Shown here in pieces: positions 4,878 through 39,537 of a DNA stretch of 64,000 bases (position 1 is the stretch's first letter; every line of letters starts with the position of its first letter). The position numbers and the translations under genes were made by a program. The notes under the pieces are model-generated. The model saw only the letters and a program-made list of their open reading frames with translations. It ran no database searches and was not told the DNA's origin. The stretch is from contig CM102289.1 in the NCBI GenBank assembly GCA_046563655.1, positions 62,001 to 126,000 on the forward strand, given 5' to 3'. This DNA comes from Yuukianura sp. NJ FZ-2021. Taxonomy: Eukaryota.

Positions 4878-5040
4878 TCTGAACAGTTCTCACTCTCTTC
4901 AATATAACGTTGATGCAGGTTAAATTATTGTTCTCTAGCATGCACAAATTTTGATATAACAAAGTCCATAACCGGGCGTGAAATAGACTGCAAAATTTGA
5001 CTAATGTGCAACATGCACAAAATTGAACGTTGAAACTAAC

Positions 5041-14000: not shown

Positions 14001-17000
14001 AGTTGAAAATCAACTCAGCTCAAGTTAAAAATCAACTCAACTCAAGTTGAAAAATCAACTCAACTCAAGTTGAAAAATCAACTCAACTCAAGTTGAAAAT
14101 CAACTCAACTCAAGTTGAAAATCAACTCAACTCAAGTTGAAAATCAACTCAACTCAAGTTGAAAATCAACTCAACTCAAGTTGAAAATCAACTCAACTCA
14201 AGTTGAAAATCAACTCAACTCAAGTTGAAAATCAACTCAACTCAAGTTGAAAATCAACTCAACTCAAGTTGAAAATCAACTCAACTCAAGTTGAAAATCA
14301 ACTCAACTCAAGTTGAAAATCAACTCAGCTCAAGTTGAAGATCAACTCAACTCAAGTTGAAAATCAACTCAACTCAAGTTGAAAATCAACTCAGCTCAAG
14401 TTAAAAATCAACTCAACAAGTTGAAAATCAACTCAACTCAAGTTGAAAATCAACTCAACTCAAGTTGAAAATCAACTCAGCTCAAGTTGAAAATCAACTC
14501 AACTCAAGTTGAAAATCAACTCAGCTCAAGTTGAAAATCAACTCAACTCAAGTTAAAAATCAACTCAACTAAAGTTGAAAATCAACTCAACTAAAGTTGA
14601 AAATCAACTCAACTCAAGTTGAAAAATCAACTCAGCTCAAGTTGAAAATCAACTCAGCTCAAGTTGAAAATCAACTCAGCTCAAGTTGAAAATCAACTCA
14701 GCTCAAGTTGAAAATCAACTCAACTCAAGTTGAAAATCAACTCAGCTCAAGTTGAAAATCAACTCAGCTCAAGTTAAAAATCAACTCAAGTCAAGTTGAA
14801 AATCAACTCAGCTCAAGTTGAAAATCAACTCAGCTCAAGTTGAAAATCAACTCAGCTCAAGTTGAAAATCAACTCAACTCAAGTTGAAAATCAACTCAGC
14901 TCAAGTTAAAAATCAACTCAACTCAAGTTGAAAATCAACTCAACTCAAGTTGAAAATCAACTCAGCTCAAGTTAAAAATCAACTCAACTAAAGTTGAAAA
15001 TCAACTCAACTCAAGTTGAAAATCAACTCAACTCAAGTTGAAAATCAACTCAATTCAAGTTGAAAATCAACTCAACTCAAGTTGAAAATCAACTCAGCTC
15101 AAGTTGAAAATCAACTCAGCTCAAGTTGAAAATCAACTCAACTCAAGTTGAAAATCAACTCAACTCAAGTTGAAAATCAACTCAACTCAAGTTGAAAAAT
15201 CAACTCAACTCAAGTTGAAAATCAACTCAGCTCAAGTTGAAAATCAACTCAACTCAAGTTGAAAATCAACTCAACTCAAGTTGAAAATCAACTCAACTCA
15301 AGTTGAAAATCAACTCAACTCAAGTTGAAAATCAACTCAGCTCAAGTTGAAGATCAACTCAACTCAAGTTGAAAATCAACTCAACTCAAGTTGAAAATCA
15401 ACTCAGCTCAAGTTAAAAATCAACTCAACAAGTTGAAAATCAACTCAACTCAAGTTGAAAATCAACTCAGCTCAAGTTGAAAATCAACTCAGCTCAAGTT
15501 GAAAATCAACTCAACTCAAGTTGAAAATCAACTCAGCTCAAGTTGAAAATCAACTCAACTCAAGTTGAAAATCAACTCAGCTCAAGTTGAAAATCAACTC
15601 AATTCAAGTTGAAAATCAACTCAACTCAAGTTGAAAATCAACTCAGCTCAAGTTGAAAATCAACTCAGCTCAAGTTGAAAATCAACTCAGCTCAAGTTGA
15701 AAATCAACTCAGCTCAAGTTGAAAATCAACTCAGCTCAAGTTAAAAATCAACTCAGCTCAAGTTGAAAATCAACTCAACTCAAGTTGAAAAATCAACTCA
15801 ACTCAAGTTGAAAATCAACTCAACTCATGTTGAAAATCAACTCAACTCAAGTTGAAAATCAACTCAGCTCAAGTTAAAAATCAACTCAACTCAAGTTGAA
15901 AATCAACTCAACTCAAGTTGAAAATCAACTCAGCTCAAGTTAAAAATCAACTCAACTAAAGTTGAAAATCAACTCAACTAAGGTTGAAAATCAACTCAAC
16001 TCAAGTTGAAAATCAACTCAGCTCAAGTTGAAAATCAACTCAACTCAAGTTGAAAATCAACTCAGCTCAAGTTGAAAATCAACTCAACTCAAGTTGAAAA
16101 TCAACTCAGCTCAAGTTGAAAATCAACTCAACTCAAGTTGAAAATCAACTCAACTCAAGTTGAAAATCAACTCAGCTCAAGTTGAAAATCAACTCAGCTC
16201 AAGTTGAAAATCAACTCAACTCAAGTTGAAAATCAACTCAATTCAAGTTGAAAATCAACTCAACTCAAGTTGAAAATCAACTCAGCTCAAGTTGAAAATC
16301 AACTCAGCTCAAGTTGAAAATCAACTCAGCTCAAGTTGAAAATCAACTCAGCTCAAGTTGAAAATCAACTCAGCTCAAGTTGAAAATCAACTCAGCTCAA
16401 GTTGAAAATCAACTCAACTCAAGTTGAAAATCAACTCAGCTCAAGTTGAAAATCAACTCAGCTCAAGTTAAAAATCAACTCAAGTCAAGTTGAAAATCAA
16501 CTCAGCTCAAGTTGAAAATCAACTCAACTCAAGTTGAAAATCAACTCAACTCAAGTTGAAAATCAACTCAGCTCAAGTTAAAAATCAACTGAACAAGTTG
16601 AAAATCAACTCAGCTCAAGTTGAAAATCAACTCAACTCAAGTTGAAAATCAACTCAGCTCAAGTTGAAAATCAACTCAATTCAAGTTGAAAATCAACTCA
16701 ACTCAAGTTGAAAATCAACTCAGCTCAAGTTGAAAATCAACTCAGCTCAAGTTGAAAATCAACTCAGCTCAAGTTGAAAATCAACTCAGCTCAAGTTGAA
16801 AATCAACTCAACTCAAGTTGAAAAATCAACTCAACTCAAGTTGAAAATCAACTCAACTCAAGTTGAAAAATCAACTCAACTCAAGTTGAAAATCAACTCA
16901 ACTCAAGTTGAAAATCAACTCAACTCAAGTTGAAAATCAACTCAACTCAAGTTGAAAATCAACTCAACTCAAGTTGAAAATCAACTCAGCTCAAGTTAAA

Positions 17001-20000
17001 AATCAACTCAACTCAAGTTGAAAATCAACTCAACTAAAGTTGAAAATCAACTCAACTAAAGTTGAAAATCAACTCAACTCAAGTTGAAAATCAACTCAGC
17101 TCAAGTTGAAAATCAACTCAACTCAAGTTGAAAATCAACTCAGCTCAAGTTGAAAATCAACTCAACTCAAGTTGAAAATCAACTCAGCTCAAGTTGAAAA
17201 TCAACTCAACTCAAGTTGAAAATCAACTCAACTCAAGTTGAAAATCAACTCAACTCAAGTTGAAAATCAACTCAATTCAAGTTGAAAATCAACTCAACTC
17301 AAGTTGAAAATCAACTCAATTCAAGTTGAAAATCAACTCAACTCAAGTTGAAAATCAACTCAGCTCAAGTTGAAAATCAACTCAGCTCAAGTTGAAAATC
17401 AACTCAGCTCAAGTTGAAAATCAACTCAACTCAAGTTGAAAATCAACTCAGCTCAAGTTGAAAATCAACTCAACTCAAGTTGAAAATCAACTCAGCTCAA
17501 GTTGAAAATCAACTCAGCTCAAGTTGAAAATCAACTCAAGTCAAGTTGAAAATCAACTCAGCTCAAGTTGAAAATCAACTCAGCTCAAGTTGAAAATCAA
17601 CTCAGCTCAAGTTGAAAATCAACTCAACTCAAGTTGAAAATCAACTCAGCTCAAGTTAAAAATCAACTCAACTCAAGTTGAAAATCAACTCAACTCAAGT
17701 TGAAAATCAACTCAGCTCAAGTTAAAAATCAACTCAACTAAAGTTGAAAATCAACTCAACTCAAGTTGAAAATCAACTCAACTCAAGTTGAAAATCAACT
17801 CAATTCAAGTTGAAAATCAACTCAACTCAAGTTGAAAATCAACTCAGCTCAAGTTGAAAATCAACTCAGCTCAAGTTGAAAATCAACTCAACTCAAGTTG
17901 AAAATCAACTCAACTCAAGTTGAAAATCAACTCAACTCAAGTTGAAAAATCAACTCAACTCAAGTTGAAAATCAACTCATCTCATGTTGAAAAATCAACT
18001 CAACTCAAGTTGAAAATCAACTCAGCTCAAGTTGAAAATCAACTCAACTCAAGTTGAAAATCAACTCAACTCAAGTTGAAAATCAACTCAGCTCAAGTTG
18101 AAAATCAACTCAACTCAAGTTGAAAATCAACTCAGCTCAAGTTAAAAATCAACTCAGCTCAAGTTGAAAATCAACTCAACTCAAGTTGAAAATCAACTCA
18201 ACTCAAGTTGAAAATCAACTCAGCTCAAGTTGAAAATCAACTCAACTCAAGTTGAAAATCAACTCAGCTCAAGTTGAAAATCAACTCAACTCAAGTTGAA
18301 AATCAACTCAGCTCAAGTTAAAAATCAACTCAGCTCAAGTTGAAAATCAACTCAACTCAAGTTGAAAAATCAACTCAACTCAAGTTGAAAATCAACTCAA
18401 CTCATGTTGAAAAATCAACTCAACTCAAGTTGAAAATCAACTCAGCTCAAGTTGAAAATCAACTCAACTCAAGTTGAAAAATCAACTCAACTCAAGTTGA
18501 AAATCAACTCAACTCAAGTTGAAAATCAACTCAACTCAAGTTGAAAATCAACTCAGCTCAAGTTGAAAATCAACTCAACTCAAGTTGAAAAATCAACTCA
18601 ACTCAAGTTGAAAATCAACTCAACTCAAGTTGAAAATCAACTCAGCTCAAGTTGAAAATCAACTCAACTCAAGTTGAAAATCAACTCAGCTCAAGTTGAA
18701 AATCAACTCAACTCAAGTTGAAAATCAACTCAGCTCAAGTTAAAAATCAACTCAGCTCAAGTTGAAAATCAACTCAACTCAAGTTGAAAAATCAACTCAA
18801 CTCAAGTTGAAAATCAACTCAACTCATGTTGAAAAATCAACTCAACTCAAGTTGAAAATCAACTCAACTCAAGTTGAAAAATCAACTCAACTCAAGTTGA
18901 AAATCAACTCAACTCATGTTGAAAAATCAACTCAACTCAAGTTGAAAATCAACTCAGCTCAAGTTGAAAATCAACTCAACTCATGTTGAAAAATCAACTC
19001 AACTCAAGTTGAAAATCAACTCAACTCAAGTTGAAAAATCAACTCAACTCAAGTTGAAAATCAACTCAACTCATGTTGAAAAATCAACTCAACTCAAGTT
19101 GAAAATCAACTCAGCTCAAGTTGAAAATCAACTCAACTCAAGTTGAAAATCAACTCAACTCAAGTTGAAAATCAACTCAGCTCAAGTTGAAAATCAACTC
19201 AACTCAAGTTGAAAATCAACTCAGCTCAAGTTAAAAATCAACTCAGCTCAAGTTGAAAATCAACTCAACTCAAGTTGAAAATCAACTCAACTCAAGTTGA
19301 AAATCAACTCAGCTCAAGTTGAAAATCAACTCAACTCAAGTTGAAAATCAACTCAGCTCAAGTTGAAAATCAACTCAACTCAAGTTGAAAATCAACTCAG
19401 CTCAAGTTAAAAATCAACTCAGCTCAAGTTGAAAATCAACTCAACTCAAGTTGAAAATCAACTCAACTCAAGTTGAAAATCAACTCAACTCATGTTGAAA
19501 AATCAACTCAACTCAAGTTGAAAATCAACTCAGCTCAAGTTGAAAATCAACTCAACTCAAGTTGAAAAATCAACTCAACTCAAGTTGAAAATCAACTCAA
19601 CTCAAGTTGAAAATCAACTCAGCTCAAGTTGAAAATCAACAACTCAAGTTGAAAAATCAACTCAACTCAAGTTGAAAAATCAACTCAACTCAAGTTGAAA
19701 ATCAACTCAACTCAAGTTGAAAATCAACTCAACTCAAGTTGAAAATCAACTCAACTCAAGTTGAAAATCAACTCAACTCAAGTTGAAAATCAACTCAACT
19801 CATGTTGAAAAATCAACTCAACTCAAGTTGAAAATCAACTCAGCTCAAGTTGAAAATCAACTCAACTCAAGTTGAAAATCAACTCAACTCAAGTTGAAAA
19901 TCAACTCAGCTCAAGTTGAAAATCAACTCAACTCAAGTTGAAAATCAACTCAGCTCAAGTTGAAAATCAACTCAGCTCAAGTTAAAAATCAACTCAACTC

Positions 20001-21269
20001 AAGTTGAAAATCAACTCAACTCAAGTTGAAAATCAACTCAGCTCAAGTTGAAAATCAACTCAACTCAAGTTGAAAATCAACTCAACTCAAGTTGAAAATC
20101 AACTCAACTCAAGTTGAAAATCAACTCAGCTCAAGTTGAAAATCAACTCAACTCAAGTTGAAAATCAACTCAATTCAAGTTGAAAATCAACTCAACTCAA
20201 GTTGAAAATCAACTCAGCTCAAGTTGAAAATCAACTCAGCTCAAGTTGAAAATCAACTCAGCTCAAGTTGAAAATCAACTCAGCTCAAGTTGAAAATCAA
20301 CTCAGCTCAAGTTGAAAATCAACTCAGCTCAAGTTGAAAATCAACTCAACTCAAGTTGAAAATCAACTCAGCTCAAGTTGAAAATCAACTCAGCTCAAGT
20401 TAAAAATCAACTCAACTCAAGTTGAAAATCAACTCAGCTCAAGTTGAAAATCAACTCAGCTCAAGTTGAAAATCAACTCAACTCAAGTTGAAAATCAACT
20501 CAGCTCAAGTTAAAAATCAACTCAACTCAAGTTGAAAATCAACTCAACTCAAGTTGAAAATCAACTCAGCTCAAGTTAAAAATCAACTCAACTAAAGTTG
20601 AAAATCAACTCAACTCAAGTTGAAAATCAACTCAGCTCAAGTTGAAAATCAACTCAATTCAAGTTGAAAATCAACTCAACTCAAGTTGAAAATCAACTCA
20701 GCTCAAGTTGAAAATCAACTCAGCTCAAGTTGAAAATCAACTCAGCTCAAGTTAAAAATCAACTCAACTCAAGTTGAAAATCAACTCAACTCAAGTTGAA
20801 AAATCAACTCAACTCAAGTTGAAAATCAACTCAACTCATGTTGAAAATCAACTCAACTCAAGTTGAAAATCAACTCAGCTCAAGTTAAAAATCAACTCAA
20901 CTCAAGTTGAAAATCAACTCAACTCAAGTTGAAAATCAACTCAGCTCAAGTTAAAAATCAACTCAACTAAAGTTGAAAATCAACTCAACTAAAGTTGAAA
21001 ATCAACTCAACTCAAGTTGAAAATCAACTCAGCTCAAGTTGAAAATCAACTCAACTAAAGTTGAAAATCAACTCAACTAAAGTTGAAAATCAACTCAACT
21101 CAAGTTGAAAATCAACTCAGCTCAAGTTGAAAATCAACTCAACTCAAGTTGAAAATCAACTCAGCTCAAGTTGAAAATCAACTCAACTCAAGTTGAAAAT
21201 CAACTCAGCTCAAGTTGAAAATCAACTCAACTCAAGTTGAAAATCAACTCAACTCAAGTTGAAAATCAA
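5041..21269 (+). repeat. 22-bp satellite array, consensus A(A/G)CTCAAGTTGAAAATCAACTC, ~16.2 kb, ~735 copies
   Basis: Uninterrupted tandem units with recurrent point variants (agctc, gttaaaa, aactaaag, aattc, catgttgaaaaa, gaagatc); each unit contains the dyad agttga-aaa-tcaact. Confidence 0.99.
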
Positions 21270-22150
21270 GCAGACGGAGATCAACCGACGAAGAAAATCC
21301 AAAACCCTTCATGAACGAAGAAAATACCAGTCCCTAATATACCAACTTTGGACGAATTCGAATTCCTAAACAAGGTTAAGGAAAATCTTTTTCCAATTTC
21401 AGGTTAGTAACCTAACCTAACCTAACGAAGTTGTCAAAAACGTTGCAAAAAATATTATTTGTAACTTTCAACCCATTTTATTATTGCATCGCTTCCATTT
21501 CACATTGTCAGCAGGACAAGACTCGTTTTTCGTTTCACTTACTTCAGTTTACATAAGAAAATTGCATCACTGGAACTTGGATATAAATTATGAGCACTGG
21601 CATCATCGTCATATCTTTTCCTTATCCTTACCGGACAAAGACAGCTTTTAAGTAAATTGCAGCTTCTTCGCAACTTAATCTTTAGAGTTCTACCAACTAA
21701 ACAAGGCTTTGCAAAAAACTTGCAACGATAAATGCTGGACAGTCATCAGTCATGGACAATTTCACAGGTTCACATCTAACACCTTAATTCATACAAAGGT
21801 ACAATTTTTTTTTAACTTCCTTTTTAAATCTTCAGTCTATTCGTAAAAGCCTAAGCATCCAATCAGCAGCACCTCCACTCCCACCTCGTTGTAAACAACT
21901 AATCAATCTAAGCATTAATTACTAACAAACATAAAATTCTCATGCAAATAGTTAATACTGGACTTTTGTTTTTTGGCCGAAAACGACTTTTTGCAAATGA
22001 AAGCTCAGAAGCCTAAATCAAAATATCAATAAGGCTTATTTTAGGAAACTTCAAATCTAAAGTTGTGGAAAGAAAGTTGCTGTACAACAGGAAACAGCTG
22101 AAGAAGGAAGATGAAACACGGCAAAGGTCAAAGGTCACGATGACTGGTCC

Positions 22151-22525
22151 TTAGAAAAAATCCCAGAGAATGTTGTCTCCAACAGCCATTGGACTCGTTC
22201 CTCCTGTATTTTTTAAATCTCCATTTTCGGAATGATCTCCCGGGAAAATGTTGAAGGAAGACGAGAGAAGTGGATCTCTATTTCCAAATGGTTGGGAATT
22301 GTGCTGGTATTCCGTGAAAAAGTTGTTCAAAGACGATGACAAAGTGTTGTTTGAACTCAGCGGCAGGAAATTCCGATTTGGAATTGTCGTACCTATTGTT
22401 GATCCTCCGGCAGTAGTTGATCCAACCAATCCAAGTATCGAAACGTCCAGATCTGGCGGAAGTAGAGTTCCAAGTTCACCTAACAGATCTTCCTGTTTGA
22501 CCTGAACAGTAGTTTCGTCTCTCAT
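22151..22525 (-). CDS. Possible short ORF or terminal exon, Ser/Asn-rich, unknown product
   Basis: 124-aa open frame with a VKQE motif and acidic-aromatic end (DNILWDFF); possible ttag acceptor near 22540. No homology recognised and no upstream exon found. Confidence 0.3.
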   Translation of the reverse strand: MRDETTVQVKQEDLLGELGTLLPPDLDVSILGLVGSTTAGGSTIGTTIPNRNFLPLSSNNTLSSSLNNFFTEYQHNSQPFGNRDPLLSSSFNIFPGDHSENGDLKNTGGTSPMAVGDNILWDFF

Positions 22526-22794
22526 TTCTTCATCCGAGTCTAAGCATTTTAAAACTCCGGAATACCATTCTCACAAAGAATACATTATTTTTTATGTGAG
22601 ATAACACATTCCGGAGTTTTAGATGCTTTAATTAACGAGTAATTAATTAAGAAATAAAGTTAATTAAGGGTGCTTTACACTTTTTTTGGATGTTAAGTAG
22701 AAGGCGCCGACCTCTACTCAAAATTTCCAATTTTTAATTCCGAGTGCGCGCATGCGCAAGCTGATTTTCTTTGAAATTTGTAGTGTGCCATCTG

Positions 22795-22836
22795 TTTTTC
22801 TTCTGCCCCTCTCTCTCTCTTTCTCTCTCTCTTTCG
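22795..22836 (+). promoter_or_regulatory. Pyrimidine tract upstream of TCTP; candidate TCT initiator / 5'TOP
   Basis: ctctctctctttctctctctctttcg ~70-100 nt before ATG 22901; TCTP mRNAs are established 5'TOP mRNAs. Confidence 0.5.
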
Positions 22837-22900
22837 AGACGCGAGTTTAATTATAATTGTTCCATTAACTAATTAATTAAACCGATTCATTGACTTGATC

Positions 22901-25211
22901 ATGAAGCTGTACAAGTGCATCCTCTCAGGTAAATGTTTTCGGCATGTACTCACACTTGGAATGAATTAAAGAGTGGTGTTAATTAGATTGGAACCTAATT
23001 AATGGAATTATGTGTTGTTTTAACAGGGGACGAGATGTTCTCCGACACTTACAAGATGAAGCTCGTGGATGAAGTCATGTATGAAGTTTATGGAAAGGGG
23101 TATAAGTGTAGAGTAGTGGGCAAGCACCGATTTTCTTGAAATTTTTTTTGTGAACACCCTATGGACCCCTGATAACGAAAATATAATTTTTTTTGAGGGG
23201 TTTCAAAAAAAAATATTTTTTCGAAATGTTGAAAAAAAAATTTCGAAATTTTTTTTTGTCTCCGATTTGGCTCAAAATTGGTTTTTAGACTAATTCAAGT
23301 GTGCTAAACACGAATATGAAAGAATTTTTGTTCTAAAATGTAACACAAAAAAGTTACGAATTTTTAAAGCTATTCCTTCTACGAGGTTAGATAGGTTAGG
23401 TGGCTGAGGTAGGTTGGGTTCAAACAAAACAGGCAGCCTTATTTACTCTTTCATTCTAGTTACATCAAGTTGTATTTTCCCGCGCCGAAGGCGCGGTGTT
23501 AGGTTTGGTTAGATTCACAATAGTGATTATTACTTTCAGTACCAAGTTTTATGGCATCACTGATGCCCATACGCAAACTTAAGGTATAAGTTGCCTTTAC
23601 TTTTCTCATAGTACGATTTCTTAAGAAATTGCGTAACATATTTGTCTTACATCCTAGAACAAAAATTCTTTCATATTCGTGTTTAGCACACCTAAATTAG
23701 TCTAAAAACCAATTTTGAGCCAAACCGGAAACAAAAAAAAATTTCACAAATTTTTTTTTTCAAAATTTCGAAAAAATAGTTTTTTTTTTGAGACCCCTCA
23801 AAAGAAATTATATTTTCGTTATCAGGGGTCCATAGGGTGTTCACAAAAAAAATTCAAGAAAATCGGTGCTTGCCCACTAGAGTAAAATTTTTCCTGGAAA
23901 GGTAAGAATCCACCTACATCATATGGTCATCGGTCGGTAGCTAGTTATGGATTTGATTTGATGATCATATTTTGATCAACTATCCTCCTAGTTATGACTT
24001 GAACGTGTTTGTTCAGAAGGCCTTGTGTGTTTCAGGTAGTTAGCAGAAAGCAAGGCGACATCGTGTTGGAGGGGTCAAATCCGTCACAGGAAGAGCAAGA
24101 AGAGGGAACAGAGTCCGGAGTGGAGAGTGGAGTAGACATTGTGCTCAACCATCGACTGGTGGAGACACATGCATTTGATAAGAAGTAAGTCCATCCACTC
24201 AATCAGTACTTGTCTCCATTCCAACCAATTACTCATGAATTTGTGGACTTTACGTAGGGGCTACACTCTCTACTTGAAGGAGTACATGAAGAAACTGTTG
24301 GCCCAACTCCAGGAGAAACATCGGTTGGAGATCACTTTCGCAGTCTGTTTTTCTTAGTCGTTTTTTTCACATGGACATGCTCCATGATAACCGCCAAAAT
24401 GACCTATACAAAAGTTGTTCCTCTTGAAAAGATAAGCAACTTTTTCTGGTACCATTTTTTCGTGTGACCTTTCGTTAAGGTCACAGGTCAAGGTCAAAAG
24501 GGGCGTTCCCTGACAACCGACAAAATGTTCCCTACAAAAGTTGTTCCTCTCCTCAAAAGCTACAACTTTCATTGAGACTATTTTTTTCTGTGACCTTTTC
24601 TACGGGTCAAAGGTCAAGGTCAACTAGGAATGTCCCGACAATCAAAAAAATGACCTCTACAAAAGTTGTTCAGCTCAATGAGTAGATCATTTTTTGTCCT
24701 ATGATCTATGACCGTGTCATCTCTCCCTGAGGTGTTATCTCATGTTGAAGGTGCGTCTCCCGGATTCGGGGTTTTAAAAAACCTAACTTATAGCCTCAGG
24801 GAGTCGTCGCAGGGTCATAGATCATAGGACAAAAAATGATCTACTCATTGAACTGAACAACTTTTGTAGAGGTCATTTTTTTGATTGTCGGGACATTCCT
24901 AGTTGACCTTGACCTTTGACCATGTGAAAGCATTTGAGCATGTCCATGTGAAAAAAACGACTAAGAAAAACAGACTGCGAAAGTGATCTCCAACCGAAAC
25001 ATCCAGACCAAACCAAGTGGACGTTTTTAAGGCCAACATCAACAAGGTCATGAAGGGGATTCTGGAGAGGTTCAAAGACCTTCAACTCTTCACTGGACAA
25101 AACATGGATCACGACGCCATGGTGGGAATGATGGAGTACCGTCAAATTGAGGGTGACTCTGTTCCAGTCATGATGTTCTTCAAACACGGACTTGAAGATG
25201 AGAAACTATAA
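22901..25211 (+). CDS. Tctp: Translationally controlled tumour protein; proposed exons 22901-22928, 23027-23099, 24017-24184, 24258-24323, 25007-25211 (179 aa)
   Basis: MKLYKCILSGDEMFSDTYKMKLVDEVMYEVYGK ... GSNPSQEEQEEGTESGVESGVDIVLNHRLVET ... YTLYLKEYMKKL ... FFKHGLEDEKL*. AATAAA at 25265. Identity is clear; the exon 2/3 and 4/5 junctions depend on transposon-supplied donors and are inferred. Confidence 0.93.
23099..23894. mobile_element. GGT...CC insertion (27-bp remnant plus nested MITE) across the TCTP exon-2 donor
   Basis: 8-bp direct repeat tggaaagg at 23091-23098 and 23895-23902; the ancestral donor AAG|gtaaga now lies at 23902. Confidence 0.7.
23116..23877. mobile_element. MITE with ~245-bp TIRs nested in the above insertion
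   Basis: gtgggcaagcaccgattttcttgaa... / ...ttcaagaaaatcggtgcttgcccac; flanking direct repeat tagagta at 23109-23115 and 23878-23884 (alternatively a 3-bp gag TSD if the TIR includes TA). Confidence 0.9.
24323..24995. mobile_element. MITE inserted in TCTP coding sequence; GG termini with 8-bp TSD (Merlin-like)
   Basis: ~59-bp near-perfect TIR ggttggagatcactttcgcagtctg... / ...cagactgcgaaagtgatctccaacc; TSD gaaacatc at 24315-24322 and 24996-25003; long internal hairpin ~24605-24920. The superfamily call is an inference from termini and TSD length. Confidence 0.9.
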
Positions 25212-25406
25212 GCTCCCACGAAACATACCCATCTCTTCTAAGCTTTCCTCACTTTTTGTTCTCCAAATAAACCGCAATTTCTGTCATTTTACTCGCTCTC
25301 TTATTCTGCTCAGTGAAAACGTGTGCAGTAGTATTGAGTGTCGCTTCGAACCACCCTACCCATTACTTTTTCATCTGACTCCAATTTTATTTTTGAGTAG
25401 AACCAA

Positions 25407-27986
25407 TCTCTATATATAAAATCGAGACCCTGTTTATCTGTGTGTGTGTGTGTGTGTGTGTCCTGCTACTCCTCCGAAACTACTGGACCGATTTGGACAA
25501 ATGAGGTGTCCTTTTCTTCGTGAGGTCACCCCGAAAAGCATAGGCTATGTTGCATCTTGACCTGTGACCTTTGACCCTTGACCTGCTGCGATGACCTCAC
25601 AAAATCGTCCCAAACACAGTCAAGTGACGTGTCATTCGAAAGCAGAGTTCAAATGCAGTCGAGTGATGTATGGCACATTGACCTGTGACCTTTGACCCTT
25701 GACCCAGGGCGGTGACCTCATATAGAATTAAGGTGAACATAGGCAAGTGACATGTCATTCAAAAGCAGAAGTCAAATGCAGTCGATTGGTGTATGACAAA
25801 TTAACCTGTGACTTTTGACCCTTGACCCAGAGCGTTGACCTCACATAAAATTAAACCAGACACAGTCAAGTGACATGTCATTGGAAAGCAGAGGTCAAAT
25901 GCAGTCGATTGATGTAAGACGCATTAACCTTTGACCTTTGACCCTTGCGCTAGAGCGGCGATCTGGCATAGAATTAAACCACCAATCTCTATATATAAAA
26001 TCGAGACCCTGTTTATCTGTCTGTGTGTCCTGCTACTCCTCCGAAACTACTGGACCGATTTGGACAAATGAGGTGTCCTTTTCTTCGTGAGGTCACCCCG
26101 AAGACCGTAGGCTATGTCACATGTTGATCTGACCTTTGACCTTTGACCCAGCGCAGTGACCTCATGTGAAACCAAAGGAAACATAGGCATGTGGTATATC
26201 AATCGAAAGGGTAGGTCAAATGGAGTCGATTGACGTATCACATGATGACGTCTGACCTTTGACCTTTGACCTAGCGCAGTGCCCTCATGCGAAATCAAAG
26301 GAAACATAGGCAAGTAGTATATCAATCGAAAGGGTAGGTCAAATGGAGTCGATTGACGTATAACAAGATGCCTATCACCTTTAACCTTTGACCCAGCGCA
26401 GTGACCTCATGTGAAATCACAGGAAATATAGGCATGTAGTATATCAATCGAGAGGGGAGCTCAGATGGTTGTGATTGACGTATAACATGACAGATCCCGT
26501 GTGACCTTTGACTCAGCGCAGTGACCTCATGCGAAATCACAGGAAACATAGCATGTCGTGTGTTAATCGAAATGGTCAGTCATTTCAGCTAATAACAGCT
26601 GAACACAGGCAAGTGACATGTGATTCGAAAGCAGAGGCCTCATTCAGTCAATTGATATATGACATATTGACCTGTGACCTTTGACCCCTGACCCAAAGCG
26701 GTGACCTCACATAGAATTAACCTTCCCATATGCATCTCTACTAATTGGTAGCGGGTCCCCCAAACTGGTAGCGATTGCCTTAGATGGGCAGCGGGTTCCC
26801 GAATTTGGTAGCAGGTCCCCAAATTGCAGTGTTGCTGGATATCCACTTTCTTGACATTTCATCCACGGCTGGATATCCAATGGAAGATATGGATGAAATG
26901 GATGAATCCAAACAGGCGGAGCTAGACCCAAAGGGATGGAGTTACACCAGCGGTTTTTGAATTGTTTTAAACTTAACGAATAGAATAAATTCAAATAAGC
27001 CCCGAAAAAACGGAAAATTGTGTTAAAATATATCTAAATTAGTGTAATTAAATAATTGATATTTAATTACATTATTTTATAATTTATAAAGTAAATTTAT
27101 TTGAAATTTGCGCATATTTTTTAAACTCAGCTCATTTTTTCCATCCACCGTCCAGTAGAACCCCATCTCATCCACTGGATATCCAGTGGAAGGGACAATT
27201 AAGCCACTGGATGTTTAAGCATCCAGCAACACGCGGGTTCCCCAAATTGGCATACGGGTTCCCTTATTTGGTAGCGGGTTCCAAAAATTGGTAGAGGATT
27301 CCACTAAGTGGTACAGGGTTCCTCAGATTGACAGCGGGTTCCCGAATGTGGTAGAGGTTCCCCCAAATTTGTAGCGGGGTCCTCAGATTGGCATTTGGTT
27401 CCCGTATTTTGTAGCGGATTCCCAAAATCGGTAGACGGTTTCCAAAGTTGGTAGCGGGTTCCTCAGATTGGCATCGGGTTCCCGTATTTGGTGGCGGGTT
27501 CCCAAAATTGGTAGAGGGTTTCCAAAACTGGTAGCGGGTTCCTCAGATCGGCATCGGCTTCCCGTATTTGGTGGCGGGTTCCCAAAATTGGTAGCGGGTT
27601 CCTCAGATTGGTAGCGGGTTGCTCAGATTGGCAGCGGATTCCCGAACTTGGAAGCGGGTCCCCGAATTTGGAAGCGGGTCCCCCAAGTTGGTAGCGAGTT
27701 ATCGAATGTGGTAGCGGGTCCCCCAAATTGGTAGCGGGTTACCGAATGTGGTAGCGGGTCCCCCAAATTTGTAGCGGGTTACTGAATATGGTAGCGGGTT
27801 ACTGAATATGGTAGCGGGTCCCCCAAATTGGTAGCGGGTTATCCAATGTGGTAGCGGGTCCCCCAAATTTGTAGCGGGTTCCCGTATTTGGTAGCGGCTT
27901 CCCAAAATTCATACGCTTTCCCTGTGTGTTCGCATACACTACCCCAAGAACTAGCCCCGCTTTGACAAGCGGGCTTCTCAACCTTG
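25407..27986 (+). mobile_element. Non-autonomous Helitron-like element with duplicated 5' end and internal tandem repeats
   Basis: 5' A|TCTCTATATATAAA followed by a (TG)n tract at 25407 and again at 25986; ~120-bp repeats at 25560-26720; ~20-bp minisatellite ggtagcgggtccccaaatt at 26745-26825 and 27233-27905; 3' hairpin cccgctt..aagcggg (27956-27973) then CTTG|T, a variant of CTRR. Confidence 0.65.
26827..27233. mobile_element. hAT-like MITE remnant interrupting the Helitron minisatellite
   Basis: cagtgttgctggat ... atccagcaacac(t)g; no clear TSD retained. Confidence 0.55.
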
Positions 27987-28057: not shown

Positions 28058-31000
28058 TCAGGAAGTGCTCTCCCTCTGCTTCTTCAGTCGATTCATCATC
28101 TTCTCCTTCTAAAAACAAAAACAATTGAAACAACAGTTGGGTGGACCAACAAGCACCACTTACGAGCCCCCCTGCTTTCTTCGGCTGCTTTGCCAAATTG
28201 GTCGTCCCGATCCGCTTCGCCTCCAGCAACTGCCTCGTCGCTTCCTCTGCCTCTTTCCGCTTCTCAATGAACATCCGCCTCTGCTCAATCTTCCAAATCT
28301 CTTTGAAATCATGGCAGAAGGACGTCCAAGGCTGGAAAAAGTCAGACGGCAAAGGAAGTTCACCAGCTTTCTTTGGTTTCGGGGTAAAGTCAAAGAATTT
28401 CATTGTCTGCACAAACCTGGAACATACAAACGTCAGTTAATGGAAACAGTAAACTGTAACATGTCCCTCCTTACGTTTTTTTGACTTCATCTAGATTCTC
28501 CTGGACGTCCATCATCTTGCCCTTTGCCTGCTCCAGGAACTTGAGCATCTTGGACTTGAAGGGCTCCAGTGTGTCCTCTGACGAAAGACGAATCACTTCC
28601 TCTGCTTGTGTCTCACAATCTACAATTACACAAGAGTTAAGGTACTAACCAACTGAATTACAAAATTAAAAAGCCTTACTTTTGAGTTTCCCTCTCAAAC
28701 AGGCAATGTCCGTCTCCACACTTTCAAAGTTGAGAGAAGACGCTCCTTCGATGTCACTCGTTTCGGGAACTGGGAGTTGAGCTTCCGTCGTTCCAGCAAA
28801 GTCGTCGTAATTCTGTCAATAACAATCACTTTCAATTTGAAACATTTTGAATGAAATTGAAATGTTTTGACTGTTGAATTGATAGGAACTGACCCTGATG
28901 TAGGTGGACACGATGAAGTGGAGGAAGGTGTAGGAGTTGTCCTTGCTCTTGACATCACGCAGTTTGGGCAGAATGTCCAGTGTGAATCCGTCTGCTTGTC
29001 CTCTCTGCATGTTCCCTCCGTTCATGTAGTTTCCATAAGTGAGGATCAGAGCCAGCACAGTCTTCAGATCCTTGGAGCTCATCAGTTTGTCACAAACGAG
29101 TCTGAAGTTGCTCAGTTTCGTTTCAATCATTCCAAAGGACTCGGCAAACGAGAACTGGAACGTGAGACACAGAATCCTCTCTGAGAACTGCGCCAGGCAG
29201 TGCAGGTCGAACAGAAATCTAAACACAAAACACAATCGTTACTCTGCTCATCAACTCAACTAAAATGTGTTTGTACTTGTCTGCTTTCTCCAGCGGCATC
29301 TCTGGATTCATCTGTATATGCTCCTTCATCAGTCCAAACTCCTCGTCTGTCGCTTTCTAAAACAATGAGAACTTAAGTTATGGAATGTTGGTCAGAGAGA
29401 AGTAAGGATCTTACAATGTCCAGTATTTTCTCCAGCGTCTCCAGTTTCACTTCGGACAGATCCAGTTCAACGATGGCTGAGGAAAAGGAACAAGTTTAGT
29501 TGGTTTATTACGGTTGTTGGAGTAAGAAGTTGTTACTAAGAAGTGTGACCTTCTTTGATTCTGGAGATGTCGGGCACTCTCCTGTCGTCCTCCAGCTTGT
29601 TGCTCCTAATGAAGATCCCCACATTCTGAGCTCTCTTGGGGTCGAGGACTGAGATGGCCTTGAGTGTTGCTTTGGGTTTCTCTTCTTTCTTCTCCTTTGT
29701 CTCTCTCTTCTCCAGCACTTGGCGACCGAAGAGATCTGTGAAGTCGTCCCAACTTCCAACACTCACTTCCTCCAACTTCTCCCACAATTTCTTCTCAGCG
29801 CTTCTTTTGTCTTCCTCTCTAGTAAGTAAACAACACTTTTGAACAGTTCAATTGTCTAGATAAGAAGTTTCTTACTCTTCTGTGGTTGGAGGAGGTGGAG
29901 GCACTCCCACTTTGATTTGAATTCGAGTCCAGTACAAAGCTAACAACAAACAACATATTTGTAGTCCAGTGTTCAACTCAAATAAGTTTGTGGCCTGGAG
30001 TGAACTCACGTTTCATTGGGATCTTGGGATTGATGGGTTTCTTCCTCGCTTCAAGTCGGGACTGCCATCCACCAGTCGGTGGAGCTGGAAGGGAAGGTGC
30101 TCCAGGCGGAGGAGGAGGCATTCCAGACATCATTGGAGGAGGAGGAGGCATTCCAGGCGCCGGAGGAGGACCAAATCCAGACATCATGGGAGGCGGAGGA
30201 GGAATTCCAGACATCATTGGAGGTGGAGGAGGAGGTATTCCAGACATCATCGGAGGAGGAGGCGGTATGCCAGACATCATGGGAGGCGGAATTCCAGACA
30301 TCATGGGAGGCGGAGGAGGAATTCCAGACATCATTGGAGGTGGAGGAGGAGGTATTCCAGACATCATCGGAGGAGGAGGCGGTATGCCAGACATCATGGG
30401 AGGAGGAGGAGGAATTCCAGATATCATTGGAGGTGGAGGAGGTATTCCAGGCATCATGGGAGGAGGTGGAGGAGGGTGGAATGTCATAGAAGGAGGAGGA
30501 GGCGGCGGAATTGGAACAAAGACGCTAGTTGTGCTTGAATTTTGACTGGTATTCTGAGAAAAAGAGGAGGGTGGAGACGGAGACTCAGGTGGAGGTTTGA
30601 AGTCGTCGTGAACTTTGACGACCGGGGAATTCTGGAAACGAAATCAAATGGTTACAATTTAATTTTAGGTTGAATGCGTAATTTAAATTGACACTCACTT
30701 GGAGTGCGATGATCTTTTTGTACTGTTCGCACTCTTCCTCCAACTGCCGAATTCTGGCCCCCAACTTCCGTTCCACTGCTTCCTGCGTTTCCCCACGCAC
30801 AGAGAACACGGCCACTTCGTGTTCCTCCGTTTGCTTCTGGAGAGACTGCTTGTGTGCCCTCTTGAGCCCCATCACCATCTGCTGGAACTCTGGAAACCAA
30901 ACACTCACTAAATCCACAACCAACACTTAGAGAAGAATTAGTAGAAGCAGAGGTCAAAGTTGAAAGGAAGAGGAGTTCAGACCTGGAGCTGCGTCCTCAG

Positions 31001-32861
31001 TCTCTGGACACGCCACACGACTGAGGTCATTTTCACTCTCAAAGTGACTCACAGTCTTCGGCACGATGCCCGGAGCGGGTAGTTCCCTCATGTCACCATC
31101 ACCCCCTCCACCTACGTTAATCCACCCCCAACTCCATCACCCTCCAAAGGTTAGGCCATCACATTATAAGCACAACTCACCAGCCTCCGTGTACTTGGCT
31201 CCACTCCGACCAACACAACAACCTTCCTGCGACGGAGGCCAGGAAACAGGGGCAATTTCCCAGGCACTTGGCAAGACACGGCTGGAGACTCCGAGTGGGA
31301 CCAGTAGTAGATCAAATCAGGCTGCAATTTACAACATTTCAACAAAGTTTCAACATTTCAACATTTGAAACTTCAAGTTCTTACCCGGAACATTTTGTCT
31401 GCCAAGTCATCGTCCTCAATTTGCTTGAGAACACCGGCAGCCAGGAGCAGCGTACAAAACTGATTGGCCACCAACTTCTGATCAGCGATGCTCAGGATTT
31501 CTTTGATGTAGTTCCCATCCTCCAAGCAAGACACGAACCAATTGATCAGCATCTGACCTAACATCACAAAAATCAACAAAAGTTACAACTCTTCATCCCT
31601 ATTCCGCGCAGTTTCAACTTCTTTTTTACCTTCGAACTTCTCGTAGAGTCTGAAATCCAGTTTTTCTGGAACAAACTTTGGTTTCGTGAGACTTTTAACT
31701 TGAGCCTGCTGTGTCTGTAGTTCTGCGAGGGTGAGACTGGCCACTTTGCGCAGCACATTGCTGTCTGGAGTGGGAACGTCAGTCACAGAGTTGTAGCGTC
31801 GAGGCAGAGGAGGAGGACCCACAAAGTCATCTCCACCAACTAAAACACAAGTTCACAACTTAAAAACTGATCAAACTTCAACCACAAAGAGAGAGTTGAT
31901 TTTACTTTTGAAGCAGTCGTCACTTCCAGTTGTTCCGTTTCCATTGTTGTCTCTGTAGCCAAAAACGGCTGATTCGGACTGGGGTTCATCCACAGGAGAA
32001 GACACTGAGCTCAGTTCCACTTTCCGTTTCCGTGTAAGTGTAAAGGAGGCAGTGAGGGGCCGCTGAACTCCGGAAGCACTGAAACACAAATGAAGCATCT
32101 TTTAAAAACAAGGTTCCTCTTCTTTGGACTAAAGTTGGATGTCACTTGAAATTGAGGTCAGCAGAAGAAGACATGATGGATGGTTCATCCAGACACAAAG
32201 TCGCTTTGCTTCCGCCCACTTCACTCGTCGGCATCAACATGATCTGCAAAACCAATCACTTTTAAATCCAACTTCCAACTTCAACTCCAAATTCAACTAA
32301 AATAGAAGTTAGTTGAAAGTGACCTCGACAGAGTCCATGCTGATTTGGTCGCTTTGGTTTCGCAGAGTGTCGTCGTCCCCATCGTCGTCCAGCGGAGAAA
32401 TGTTGGCCACTGCCGAGTAGAAACTCCCACTTAAACTCCCACCTCAGAAAGTGATAAAAGTAGAAGTTGAATTTCACTTTGATTCAAGTTTTAAATATTG
32501 ATAGTTGAGTAAAGTTACCTCCGAAAGCAGTTTGGAATGTTTCTGGGAGTGTCCAAGTGCTCAGTTCTTCGTCTAGTGAAGTGTCCTCTTCGTAGTTTAG
32601 ACTGAGGTCAGTGCGAGAGGAGAGAGAGCAGTTGGGGTCCAGAGATCCGTTAGTGGATGGATGTTGTGAATTCCTCTCACTTCCACCTTCGTCCACCGTT
32701 GTTGAAGTGTTGAGTGGAGATGAATTGGGTGGAGGGGGAGCTCTGTTTTTTGTGGATACTGCTCTTGTGTCCATTGTTGGTTGTTCAGTGTCTCCTTTCC
32801 CCTTGCTGCTCTTGACACTCTTCTTCTTCCCTTCCTTCTCCTTCCCTGCTTGGTTGCCCAT
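28058..32861 (-). CDS. capu: Formin, Cappuccino/FMN1-2 class, multi-exon
   Basis: MGNQAGK start; DEP-like region ([11 protein letters not shown]...[14 protein letters not shown]); coiled coil; poly-Pro FH1 (~30050-30510); FH2 ([69 protein letters not shown]); Spire-binding-like basic tail [22 protein letters not shown] with stop at 28058. Confidence 0.93.
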
Positions 32862-33114
32862 CCTCACCAGTTGACGGAGATGAGGGCAGGAGATGAGTCC
32901 AGTGACACACAAGGTGGATGGCAGTTGATCAAGGGATGGAGGACATTGGAAGCAAGGAACCAGCAAGTACGTCCCAAAACATTTCCCTCTTCTTCCAAAG
33001 TTGTCCTCTGACACTTGACTTACATTTTGAGTCCACTCCTTTCCTACTGGACAAAGGACGGTTGGAAGTGGAAGTCGCCAGTACTGCCACTCGTTGAACT
33101 CTGCTTCTTCGTTT

Positions 33115-33490
33115 CCTTCAAAACAACGAGATCCATTAAGTTTTAAGGACCCAGTACAAAGGTTGACAATTGAAATAGCAGAAGGAGCTTACCGTTGGTG
33201 ACTGTTGTCTCTCTGGGTAGAGTGAAAGCATGTTGATGTCTGGTAGGAGTGTTATATGTAGAGGTGCATTCTGAATGACTGAAACTGGAGAGAAAAGAGA
33301 AAGTATCAGGAGCGCCGCCGCGGTTTCCCAACGCCGTCGCACATTGTTGAGCATTTGGTTTTGAAAAGTAGGAATTTCCTTCTGGAGAGATTGGTGACTG
33401 CTGAGCGTGATACTGGCCATGATGCTGATGGATCCCATTTCCTGTTTCTGCTGTGTCCATGTGACCAGTGACTCCTTGTGCAGTAGGCAT
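33115..33490 (-). CDS. Candidate upstream coding exon (33490-33193) splicing in frame to 33115 and on into the formin
   Basis: ATG 33490, phase-1 donor ACG|gtaagc at 33192, acceptor aag at 33116. The frame stays open from 33115 through MGNQ and encodes EFNEWQYWRLPLP. Confidence 0.55.
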
Positions 33491-33981: not shown

Positions 33982-35104
33982 TTATTATAATAGCGAAGCT
34001 ATTATGATAAAAGAGGTTTGTCTGTCCGTCTGTCTGTCCGGATTAATTATCTCAGAAACTACTGGTCCGATTTGATTCCGGTTTTCACCAGTGACCATGT
34101 CATGACCCGGGCTTGGTCACTATTGAATATTATCCCATTGGGTCAAAGGTCAAGGTCAACCGTTTTCTCCCGATAACTCAGTAACCAAGCGACGACAGGA
34201 AAAATGACCTCTACAAAAGTTGTTCAGCTCGATGAGATGATCATTTTTTGTCCTATGACCTATGACACTGTGACCTATACCTGAGGTCATAGGTAATTCC
34301 GAAGTTTTTCATCTATCTTTATGCCGACCTGTGGCCTTAGGGATAGGTCACAAGGTCATAGGTCATAGGACAAAAAATGATCATCTCATCGAGCTGAACA
34401 ACTTTTGTAGAGGTCATTTTTTGGGTTGTCTGGAGAGGTCATTCAACTTCAACTCGAAATTTGTCTAAGTCGATTTCAAAGGTCATTTGTAATGCAAGTG
34501 TGGGTAAACAAAACTCTGCTTGTGAGACTGGAAAGGCAATTGGCATGGGACTTGATTCTCTGCTTAGCAAAAAATCTATTACGCAGTTGACATATACACA
34601 TTACACACTCATGCACTGTGTCCACCGGGTGTCACCTGTCACTTGCCGGGTGTCACCTGTCACCTGTTGATTGCCGGGTGTCACCTGTCACCTGTTGATT
34701 GCCGGGTGTCACCTGTCACCTGTGACTTGCCGGGTGTCACCTGTCACGTGCCGCGTGTCACCTGTCACCCTCAAGTGTCACTTGCCGGGTGTCACCTGTC
34801 ACGCCTCAGCTGTCACGTCTCACCTGTCAAAACCCCCTGGGGGGCGGGAAAGTGGGGGGAACACACCCCCACTACCCCGGGGGGGGCGGGAAAGTGGGGG
34901 AACACACCCCCACGCCTCCTGGGATGCGGAGCAAAGAAGCGGGAAAACACACCCCTACTCCCCGGGGGGGGGGCGGGAAAGTGGGGAAAACACACCCCCA
35001 CTCCCCCCGGGGGGGGGAGGCGGAAAGGTGGGGGGAACAAACCCCCTTCGGGGGGCCTATTGCTTCGCTATTATCAGTATGGGCGGTTTACAACCGGTTT
35101 ATTA
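33982..35104 (+). mobile_element. DINE-1/HINE-like (Helentron-associated) non-autonomous element
   Basis: SubTIRs ataatagcgaagc (33987-33999) / gcttcgctattat (35062-35074); GTCT/GTCC microsatellite at 34019-34040; 3' hairpin cggtt-tac-aaccg (35084-35096); T-rich flanks; internal tandem repeats at 34625-34830 and G/C-run repeats at 34830-35055. Confidence 0.75.
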
Positions 35105-35291
35105 TTGCTCAAATTAAAGTTAAATTAAAATTAAATTTGAATTTTAAATTTCCTCAGCGCGGGACGCCGGTTTGTTTACAAACTAGTTTTGCCATTTCCA
35201 CTAAATGCCATTGCCTTTGACAAAACCATAGTGCAATTCCAAAATTAAAGTTAATTATATTGAAATTGGAAATGACTTGAACTTAGTAATT

Positions 35292-38200: not shown

Positions 38201-38415
38201 TTTCTTTTGATTTTTTAAAAGTAAATTTTACCGAAAGTATACCGATTGGTGTTACGCAATAATTGCTTTTGGAGAAGTTACCCTCGTTTGATTGATATAA
38301 TTTGTGAATTGTAGTTTTTTGAAATAAAATTTCGGTTACAACCAAGATGCACCAAAAAATAAACAATTAAATTTCGAGAAATAAAAATAGGTGTACTTCT
38401 TGTTCTGGCTTCTTC
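35292..38415 (-). mobile_element. Sola1-type DNA transposon, apparently full length
   Basis: ~31-bp perfect TIR gaagaagccagaacaagaagtacacctattt / aaataggtgtacttcttgttctggcttcttc; 4-bp TSD AATT (35288-35291, 38416-38419), matching the Sola1 AWWT target. Confidence 0.9.
35623..37986 (-). CDS. Sola1-type DDD transposase, spliced
   Basis: WRSNVTKRARLAG..Y...KG..V....CKC..SC; DGRGKH; RESHYSR; FNLSFGYPRSDICETC; FDFEKNLPLP; SRQLWLYNFGIH; KGPNEVISCL; SDNSGGQNKN; FPIVGHSRMACDRAFARVE; acidic tail. Short introns, one with a GC donor (~37667). Confidence 0.88.
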
Positions 38416-39537
38416 AATTGTGGCTCCTCTTGTACTAATTCTGTAAATTAATCTAAATTATGATGATTACACGGTTAACTATAGAATAATCCTTTGTAGA
38501 TGTGAGTACTAATTATAAATAAAAGTCACATTTAGTTTGGAATTGTAGAAATGCACTAGTTGGCAGCAATGGCATTTACTTTAATTGGCAAAACAAAAAT
38601 TAGAGATTGTTGACTCACTATTGTTCACTACAAAACAAACTTGAAGGGAGAAGTACTGTTGAATGAATTCCAAATAGTAAGTACTGCTTAATTAAAATTA
38701 TTAACGAAACTGTTTCTAAAAACGTTTGTTTGGTTCTTATCCGTAGAGCTTAGGATGGTGTGCGGACGAGAAGCGAGGAAGAAATGACAAGAGGATTGAA
38801 GATGGGCTTGTTTGCAGAGGCTGACAGGAGAGACACCCACTATCATCAAGGCAGAGGTCAGGGAGGTCATTCCATTCCAACGTTAGACGAAGGCTAAGGA
38901 GCAATGACAACAATGTTTCATTTTAGTTACTCCCACACATCGAGGCCCAGCGGGTGAGTCATGTCATTTCCATTTCTTTTCACATCTTCTCCCAGTCCCA
39001 CTCCCAACCATTGTTTTTGTAAGAGACTTTTTGTTTACAAGAATTCCTGAGCTTATTCTGAACATTGTAAGTTTTGTACTGAAGTTGGTTGTTTTGAATG
39101 AGCAGGAACTGTTCCATGGAGCCTGGTGTGGATACTCCGCTTGAGCACAAAACGGGACTTGCTTGGAGGCATGCCGGTTCCCCTGCTGCGCTCAAGGCCT
39201 CTTCCAGCCCTCTTCATTCCATTCACAAAGTCAAAGAGAGAAGGCTGCAACTGGGATCAGTTGGACACATTTTCCAACTCACACTCCAATCCACACAATT
39301 CGGACACTGGACTCACTTCCGGATTTCTACACAAGTGAAAGTGAGTGTGGAAATGTCAAACACTTTCGTCCTAAATCCTGTCATCATCACATTTCCGAAT
39401 CCTACCAAACCGCCTTCAACTTCCACTGGGCCAAAAACTGCCTAAGTATGACAAACAACAGTTAAATACAAGAATCCACTTTTTCAGTTAAATGGAAACG
39501 TCAACCTGAGTACTAGAGAGTTGTCTAGTGATCATCG

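What the first reader, a model, noticed from the sequence alone, without database searches (positions are those of the whole stretch)
23091..24044. Second GGT...CC, 8-bp-TSD insertion displaces the conserved TCTP exon-2 donor, and an in-frame rescue path exists
Seen: tggaaagg is duplicated around 23099-23894, moving the ancestral AAG|gtaaga donor ~800 bp away from exon 2. As in the other insertion, the element starts GGT, giving a donor at 23100 that adds 2 nt. The ancestral acceptor (24035) is then out of frame, but a similar acceptor 19 nt upstream (gtgtttgttcag, 24016) gives a stop-free in-frame product YGK-GRPCVFQ-VVSRK; ttag at 24043 would also be in frame (-2 aa). Inference: two independent splice-rescued insertions with the same end signature in one gene suggest a GGT-terminated (Merlin-like) element family that remodels splice sites in this genome.
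Basis: partly seen in the sequence, partly recalled or inferred. Interest (0 to 1): 0.7.

Follow-up and report, generated by a model that had tools for sequence, protein, structure and literature searches.

The report
Transposon jammed on TCTP splice site
A small hairpin-shaped transposon really has landed on an exon boundary of a conserved growth gene in a springtail-like animal, but the same DNA sample also holds an unbroken copy of the gene, so this is most likely a recently damaged copy rather than a gene rescued by new splicing.

Summary
The anatomy is as described: a 796-bp non-coding foldback element (23099-23894) with an 8-bp target duplication separates TCTP exon 2 from its strong donor. 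The duplication is not ancestral. Contigs of the same sample, and of a second study, show a TCTP copy without the insertions. Rescue is not shown; no RNA was available. The new donor at 23100 is weak (4/9 consensus), the old 134-nt intron is intact, and read-through stops at 23137. The 24016 acceptor seems to pre-exist in the empty copy, and 136 of 136 homologues have no indel here. Against long decay: listed differences between the copies are mostly synonymous (11 of 17). The two elements share only GG...CC ends and 8-bp duplications, which is Merlin-like but not one family. Best reading: a recently disabled allele or duplicate. Boldest open reading: hairpin-directed (SOS-type) excision of element plus one duplication restores normal protein. 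The scan earlier reached the spare-copy reading for the second insertion and noted similar cases elsewhere in this genome.

The parts
22901..22928 (+). TCTP exon 1 (coding, 28 nt), donor CAG|GTAAAT
23027..23097 (+). TCTP exon 2 (71 nt), ends after Lys33 in phase 0
   Evidence: same intron position in L001, L003, L020, L021
23091..23098 (.). left copy of 8-bp target-site duplication: 7 exonic nt plus the first G of the old donor, not its T
23099..23894 (.). non-autonomous foldback element (MITE), 796 nt, GG...CC, longest stop-free frame 65 aa
   Evidence: multicopy by depth
23114..23369 (+). left arm of long inverted repeat
   Evidence: 91.6% over 261 nt with right arm; fold z-score -29
23620..23879 (-). 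right arm of long inverted repeat
23109..23115 (.). 7-bp direct repeat, left copy (right copy 23878-23884); possible duplication of a nested inner element 23116-23877
23097..23105 (+). candidate new donor GGG|GTATAA (intron would start at 23100); weak
23137..23139 (+). first in-frame stop if the element stays in the mRNA (46-aa product)
23406..23414 (+). strong cryptic donor GAG|GTAGGT inside the element, downstream of the stop
23895..23902 (.). right copy of the 8-bp duplication; carries the displaced donor AAG|GTAAGA
23902..24035 (+). ancestral intron 2, 134 nt, both ends intact
24005..24016 (+). alternative acceptor 19 nt upstream, in frame with donor 23100; apparently also present in the insertion-free copy
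24036..24184 (+). TCTP exon 3 (contains AG at 24043 and 24046, in frame with donor 23100)
24258..24322 (+). TCTP exon 4, part before the second insertion
24323..24995 (.). second, unrelated foldback element (673 nt, 60-nt perfect TIR, 8-bp duplication at 24315-24322 and 24996-25003)
25004..25211 (+). TCTP exon 4, part after the second insertion, with 5 extra nt next to the duplication; stop ends at 25211

Best explanation
A non-autonomous, Merlin-like foldback transposon inserted into one copy (allele or duplicate) of TCTP, duplicating 8 bp that include the exon end and the G, but not the T, of the donor. Shown: the structure, and an insertion-free copy in the same sample. Inferred: the spliceosome keeps using the intact 134-nt intron or a strong donor inside the element, so the element stays in the message, a stop at 23137 follows, and this copy makes little or no normal TCTP. 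Inferred: the insertion-free copy supplies the function; this copy was working until fairly recently and then also took the second insertion. The in-frame routes are real on paper but are by-products of old sequence, not an evolved rescue.
For: Insertion-free copy: joint 24321 to 25008 skips the second element in 4 of 4 runs laid (2 studies). For this element the evidence is indirect: one X1 record of 438 nt (depth 212) and one X4 record of 478 nt (depth 82) align up to the end of exon 2, and a contig of the same depth carries the exon-3 variants; if these are the same records they lack 820 and 815 nt against 804 expected for element plus one duplication. The X5 record stops matching at 23098 and its last 18 letters do not follow the element. 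Splice signals: donor 23100 matches 4 of 9 consensus positions, as do 68% of 5166 GT sites, against 8 of 9 for the displaced donor; the strongest U1 pairing of the sites scored is inside the element (23409), beyond the stop. Length between residues 28 and 40 is the same in 136 of 136 full-length homologues; E29, G32, R37 are invariant. The empty copy aligns from 23999 on and no variant between 23999 and 24035 is among the rows shown, so acceptor 24016 seems older than the insertion; the window's G at 24036 (T in the empty copy) moves the out-of-frame acceptor towards the consensus. All 6 listed amino-acid differences have the empty copy on the commoner homologue residue, including E136Q (E in 134 of 136) and E169D (E in 135 of 136). 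Drosophila Tctp null heterozygous embryos look largely normal (PMC7329144, passages).
Against: No RNA was seen, so the fate of the transcript is inferred. Listed coding differences are 11 synonymous to 6 non-synonymous (omega about 0.13, neutral P 6e-5), so the copy was under purifying selection for most of its separate history; only 40 of 400 difference rows were shown. Window-type letters at some of the changed codons also occur in other haplotypes of X4 and X5, so they may predate the insertions. A stop-free in-frame upstream YAG within 30 nt arises in only 3% of 183 proxy tests for a +2 shift (11% for any AG; 16% and 37% counting both sides), so acceptor 24016 is a lucky fit. By U1 energy the 23100 site is in the top 9% of GT sites, close to the real intron-3 donor (-5.4 vs -5.6), and GTATA donors occur in relatives when preceded by AAG. 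The 5 extra nt beside the second element put its GT-AG path in frame, which looks like compensation. The junction lies at the base of TCTP's mobile loop (PMC5966295, passages), where extra residues might be absorbed.
Confidence: 0.62

Rival explanations
1. Spliceosomal rescue: the element's GT at 23100 (or another weak GT near its end) is joined to 24017, 24044 or 24047, or through a 19-nt micro-exon, and gives a working TCTP with a small indel.
For: Frames are open. An upstream in-frame YAG is uncommon by chance (3% of 183). Divergence is mostly synonymous. The second insertion also has an in-frame GT-AG path thanks to 5 extra nt. Introners that add codons are known (PMC9860276, passages).
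Against: Weak donor competing with an intact short intron and a stronger internal donor; no indel in 136 of 136 homologues; acceptor 24016 apparently pre-existing; both insertions must be rescued at once; an unbroken copy removes the need.
Confidence: 0.13
2. Hairpin-directed, spliceosome-independent excision (SOS splicing): the old intron is spliced normally, the element is left exonic, its 260-nt stem is recognised and cut out; cuts that remove the element plus one duplication restore the exact reading frame, and the same could apply to the second element.
For: [quoted passage not shown] The element folds at z = -29. Of 1280 cut pairs near its ends, 298 are in frame and stop-free, 14 keep the length and 8 give the unchanged sequence.
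Against: Shown only in C. elegans and human cells; 'Drosophila' and 'arthropod' do not occur in that paper's main text. It is imprecise and rescued function only in poorly conserved regions; this site is length-invariant. Presence of AKAP17A, CAAP1 and RTCB in this animal was not tested. Two imprecise events multiply.
Confidence: 0.12
3. A non-canonical GG donor at 23098 (AAG|GG) is used with 24036, giving normal-length protein.
For: In frame, 172 aa. [quoted passage not shown]
Against: Those donors nearly all have A at +3; here +3 is G. The gene's other introns are GT-AG. No evidence for relaxed donors in this animal.
Confidence: 0.04
4. The 8-bp repeat is a coincidence or an assembly artefact.
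For: The outer 15 nt of the ends match poorly and an inner element with its own 7-bp repeat fits as well; the right junction is not bridged by a listed contig.
Against: Left junction bridged exactly in X2; empty-copy records match to 23098 and lack about the expected length; no repeat of the junction 8-mer in 4 of 4 related genomic loci; chance below 1%.
Confidence: 0.03

Closest known systems
Non-autonomous Merlin (IS1595/IS1016-related) DNA transposons (PMC8101967, passages)
   Same: GG termini, 8-bp duplication, TIR length within 24-462 bp; imperfect outer TIRs are described for some families.
   Different: No transposase in the element and no partner transposase identified; family boundaries unverified; a nested inner element with a 7-bp repeat is possible.
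Introners: MITE-derived introns (PMC11282704 parts 1-2 of 5; PMC9860276 and PMC12130899, passages)
   Same: TIR element with duplication at a splice junction; GT near the element's end; AG inside the duplication.
   Different: It sits on an existing donor rather than making a new intron; the GT is 2 nt off the position that would give clean removal; splicing is not shown; no family of intron-forming copies is shown.
SOS splicing of exonic DNA transposons in C. elegans and human cells (PMC12779559)
   Same: Long base-paired inverted repeats left in the exonic part of a transcript, with a premature stop.
   Different: Not shown in arthropods; no transcript data; highly constrained insertion site.
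Transposon-disrupted allele or duplicated gene copy sheltered by an intact copy (general knowledge, recalled)
   Same: Two insertions, an adjacent 5-nt indel and changes at conserved residues, beside an insertion-free copy.
   Different: Divergence is still mostly synonymous, so decay is recent or incomplete; allele versus paralogue is unresolved.

Membership tests
Merlin superfamily | Terminal 5'-GG at both ends | tested here: met
   Both elements begin GG and end CC; criterion from PMC8101967
Merlin superfamily | 8- or 9-bp target-site duplication | tested here: met
   8 bp for both elements
Merlin superfamily | TIR of 24-462 bp reaching the termini | tested here: inconclusive
   About 260-nt arms at 91.6%, but the outer 15 nt match at 8 of 15 and an inner element with a 7-bp repeat fits too
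Merlin superfamily | DDE_Tnp_IS1595 transposase in the element, or an autonomous partner sharing its ends | not testable with these tools
   Element is non-coding (longest frame 65 aa); no genome held; the four ORFs of the nearby transposon gave only DUF7869
One GGT-terminated family with the second insertion | Shared TIR or internal sequence | tested here: not met
   Best BLASTN match 22 nt, E 0.065; ends differ after GG or GGT
Introner | Element removed from mRNA by the spliceosome | not testable with these tools
   No RNA holder listed
Introner | Splice sites from the element or duplication that restore the frame at its own ends | tested here: not met
   GT at 23100 to the duplication's AG at 23901 leaves +2; in-frame routes need another acceptor and change the length
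Introner | Many similar copies acting as introns across the genome | not testable with these tools
   Element is multicopy by depth but positions are unknown; metagenome scan found 0 matches
SOS-splicing substrate | Base-paired inverted repeats in the exonic part of an mRNA | tested here: inconclusive
   Stem predicted at z = -29; exonic only if the old intron is still used (inferred)
SOS-splicing substrate | AKAP17A/CAAP1/RTCB-dependent excision near the repeat ends | not tested
   No RNA, no genome; orthologues not searched
TCTP (PF00838) | Sequence and fold | tested here: met
   Pfam TCTP E 7.6e-18 for the last exon; 43 of 57 candidates hit by exon 3 are PF00838; model of homologue P0001 matches solved TCTPs

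The most novel reading that the evidence does not exclude
A natural, doubly inserted copy of a conserved arthropod gene is kept partly alive after transcription: because the 8-bp duplication straddles the exon end, the old intron survives intact, the element becomes an exonic 260-nt hairpin, and hairpin-directed (SOS-type) excision of element plus one duplication yields unchanged TCTP mRNA. This would extend SOS splicing to arthropods and could explain other exonic MITEs noted in this genome. No arthropod case appeared among the 4 papers listed (listing only) or in the main text of PMC12779559.
Probability: 0.1. Interest if true: 0.7.

Novelty: new member of a known kind. Interest (0 to 1): 0.25.

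Why it matters
On the best reading it matters little: one more transposon-damaged gene copy. Its value is as a test case. Inserted and empty copies coexist in one sample and differ at many marker positions, so allele-specific RNA reads would show directly whether an arthropod removes such elements by cryptic GT-AG splicing, by hairpin-directed excision, or not at all.

Tried and rejected
No whole genome is held, so no genome-wide scan for the family or for a second TCTP locus. No RNA holder listed among 5 runs; this says nothing about expression. 4 of the 5 runs were laid (X3 left out); all are contigs. The window-type copy was not seen over exons 1-2 in X4 and X5, but contigs show presence, not absence. 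Metagenome scan for the inner TIR: 0 matches. Metagenome scan with the last exon: 21 loci, none closer than 73% identity, none matching either element. Protein searches found no near-identical TCTP (best 82% to exon 3; best 75% to the conceptual protein), so the predicted peptides could not be looked up. Rfam 21300-27000: 0 matches. Earlier-findings look-up by the element's sequence and by SOS-related words: nothing. A third copy of the element's first 9 nt at 57956-57964 has no duplication or further similarity and looks like an ordinary donor. The tree puts the protein with unnamed soil sequences and Allacma fusca at support 85/97 on a long branch: no firm placement. The model of homologue P0001 puts the junction in strand 33-37 but confidence there is under 50, so it is not used as evidence. 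The search for Ds-type splicing precedents returned one unrelated review; listings only, apart from papers then opened; one search gave nothing on null lethality.

Full report
OBSERVATION. The window holds a TCTP gene on the + strand (Pfam PF00838) just beyond a 16-kb satellite. Exon 2 (23027-23097) ends in Lys33. TGGAAAGG is present at 23091-23098 and 23895-23902 around a 796-nt element; chance is about 4e-4 to 7e-3 depending on how many boundaries are allowed. The duplication copies seven exonic bases and the G of the donor, but not its T, so the left copy reads AAG|GG and the full donor AAG|GTAAGA now lies 804 nt downstream. The intron after Lys33 is ancestral: 4 of the 21 related loci cover this junction with an intron, all AAG|GT, none repeating the junction 8-mer (L001 and L003 are nearly the same sequence).

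THE ELEMENT. It is non-coding (longest frame 65 aa), has about 260-nt inverted arms at 91.6%, folds at z = -29 and is multicopy, with summed depth in the arms tens of times that of the exons. Its outer 15 nt match at only 8 of 15; the right end reads GGA inward, not GGT. A perfect 7-bp direct repeat flanks the well-matched inner 762 nt, exactly 10 nt in from each end, so a nested insertion into a 27-nt stub is an alternative to one element with imperfect ends. Contig break points are ambiguous: X1 breaks as if the outer end were shared with another copy, X2 as if sharing began at 23114. GG ends, 8-bp duplications and TIRs of 24-462 bp define Merlin elements, and very imperfect outer TIRs are described (PMC8101967, passages). 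Both insertions fit that outline, but they share no significant sequence (best 22 nt, E 0.065). 'Merlin-like' is fair; 'one GGT family' is not supported.

AN INSERTION-FREE COPY. Five DNA runs and no RNA run were listed; four were laid (X1, X2, X4 one sample, X5 another study). A joint from 24321 to 25008, skipping the second element and the 5 extra nt beside it, appears in 4 of 4 runs. For the present element, an X1 record of 438 nt (depth 212) aligns to 23098 and an X4 record of 478 nt (depth 82) to 23093; single contigs of the same depths carry the exon-3 variants and end at about 24139. Taking them as the same records, they lack 820 and 815 nt, against 804 expected; the rest of the difference would lie in the 5' part of the intron, which does not align. 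An X5 record also stops matching at 23098. The inserted form is bridged at its left junction by an exact X2 contig. In X1 the two forms have similar depth (295 and 212). The empty form shares promoter and 3' flank, and X4 and X5 show mixed patterns of window-type and other-type letters in the last exon, which fits alleles of one variable locus, though a duplicate is not excluded.

IS IT RESCUED? Against: donor 23100 has 4 of 9 consensus positions, equalled by 68% of 5166 GT sites; the displaced donor has 8 of 9, and its 134-nt intron is whole; a stronger donor lies at 23409; any message that keeps more than 39 nt of the insertion in frame meets a stop at 23137 (consensus as in PMC5714493, U1 motif recalled). 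Among 136 full-length homologues (20 of 156 fetched proteins dropped for length or missing start) none has an indel between residues 28 and 40, and E29, G32 and R37 are invariant. The empty copy aligns from 23999 with no variant shown up to 24035, so acceptor 24016 seems to predate the insertion; this rests on a table showing 40 of 400 rows. All 6 listed replacement differences leave the empty copy with the commoner residue, including E136Q and E169D at near-invariant sites. [quoted passage not shown]

MECHANISM. Most likely (0.62): default splicing leaves the element in the message, which is truncated or degraded, and the unbroken copy does the work; Tctp null heterozygous fly embryos look largely normal (PMC7329144, passages). 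The structure and the empty copy are shown; the transcript's fate is inferred. Rivals: spliceosomal rescue (0.13); hairpin-directed SOS-type excision (0.12); a GG donor at 23098 (0.04), which lacks the +3 A typical of copepod GG donors (PMC5714493, part 1 of 2); coincidence or artefact (0.03). Of 1280 cut pairs near the ends, 298 are in frame and stop-free and 8 give the unchanged sequence; this is an enumeration, not evidence of use.

COMPARISON AND NOVELTY. Transposons that supply or co-opt splice sites, with or without added codons, are established (PMC11282704 parts 1-2 of 5; PMC9860276 and PMC12130899, passages). This case fails the clean introner geometry by 2 nt and is not shown to be spliced. 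It is a new instance of a known kind: a MITE-disrupted gene copy. The animal is probably a springtail: weak tree support and unchecked notes of this scan. The scan's note on the second insertion reached the same spare-copy reading from what are probably the same runs, so it is not independent; other notes report MITEs on splice sites or in exons elsewhere in this genome, untested here, which keeps the genome-wide question open. Supplements were not read for any paper. Interest 0.25.

Noticed in passing
window 5040-21269; 1-4874: 736 copies of a 22-bp satellite, preceded by arrays of a 13-bp repeat in both orientations; the TCTP gene starts 1.6 kb beyond the satellite.
   Followed up: no
window 25004-25016: Five extra nucleotides just after the second element's duplication, absent from the empty copy; they put donor 24324 and acceptor 25006 in frame. 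Frameshift or compensation is undecided.
   Followed up: partly
window 23099-23107 and 23583-23591: The element's first 9 nt recur inside it, and the next stretch repeats the 7-mer of the right end; the left terminus could be filler DNA copied from within the element (3 matches in the window, 0.1 expected).
   Followed up: partly
window 35288-38419: A 3.1-kb DNA transposon with 41-nt inverted repeats and a broken transposase-like frame; one piece hits DUF7869.
   Followed up: partly
window 34191-34434: Foldback about 76% like the interior of the second element, without its termini.
   Followed up: partly
window 25560-26576 and 27233-27909: Two arrays of 123-bp units rich in TGACCT and an array of 20-bp units, just downstream of TCTP.
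   Followed up: no
window 25008-25400, runs X2, X4, X5: At least three TCTP haplotypes with mixed patterns of variants in the last exon and 3' flank.
   Followed up: partly
window 25101-25103: Asn137 where 136 of 136 homologues have Ser; no variant is listed there, so it may be shared with the empty copy.
   Followed up: partly
window 28816-33188 (-), 41396-44005 (+), 58742-59623 (+): A formin (FH2) gene, an LDL-receptor-like gene, and a 293-aa frame of 23-residue cysteine repeats with no convincing Pfam match.
   Followed up: no
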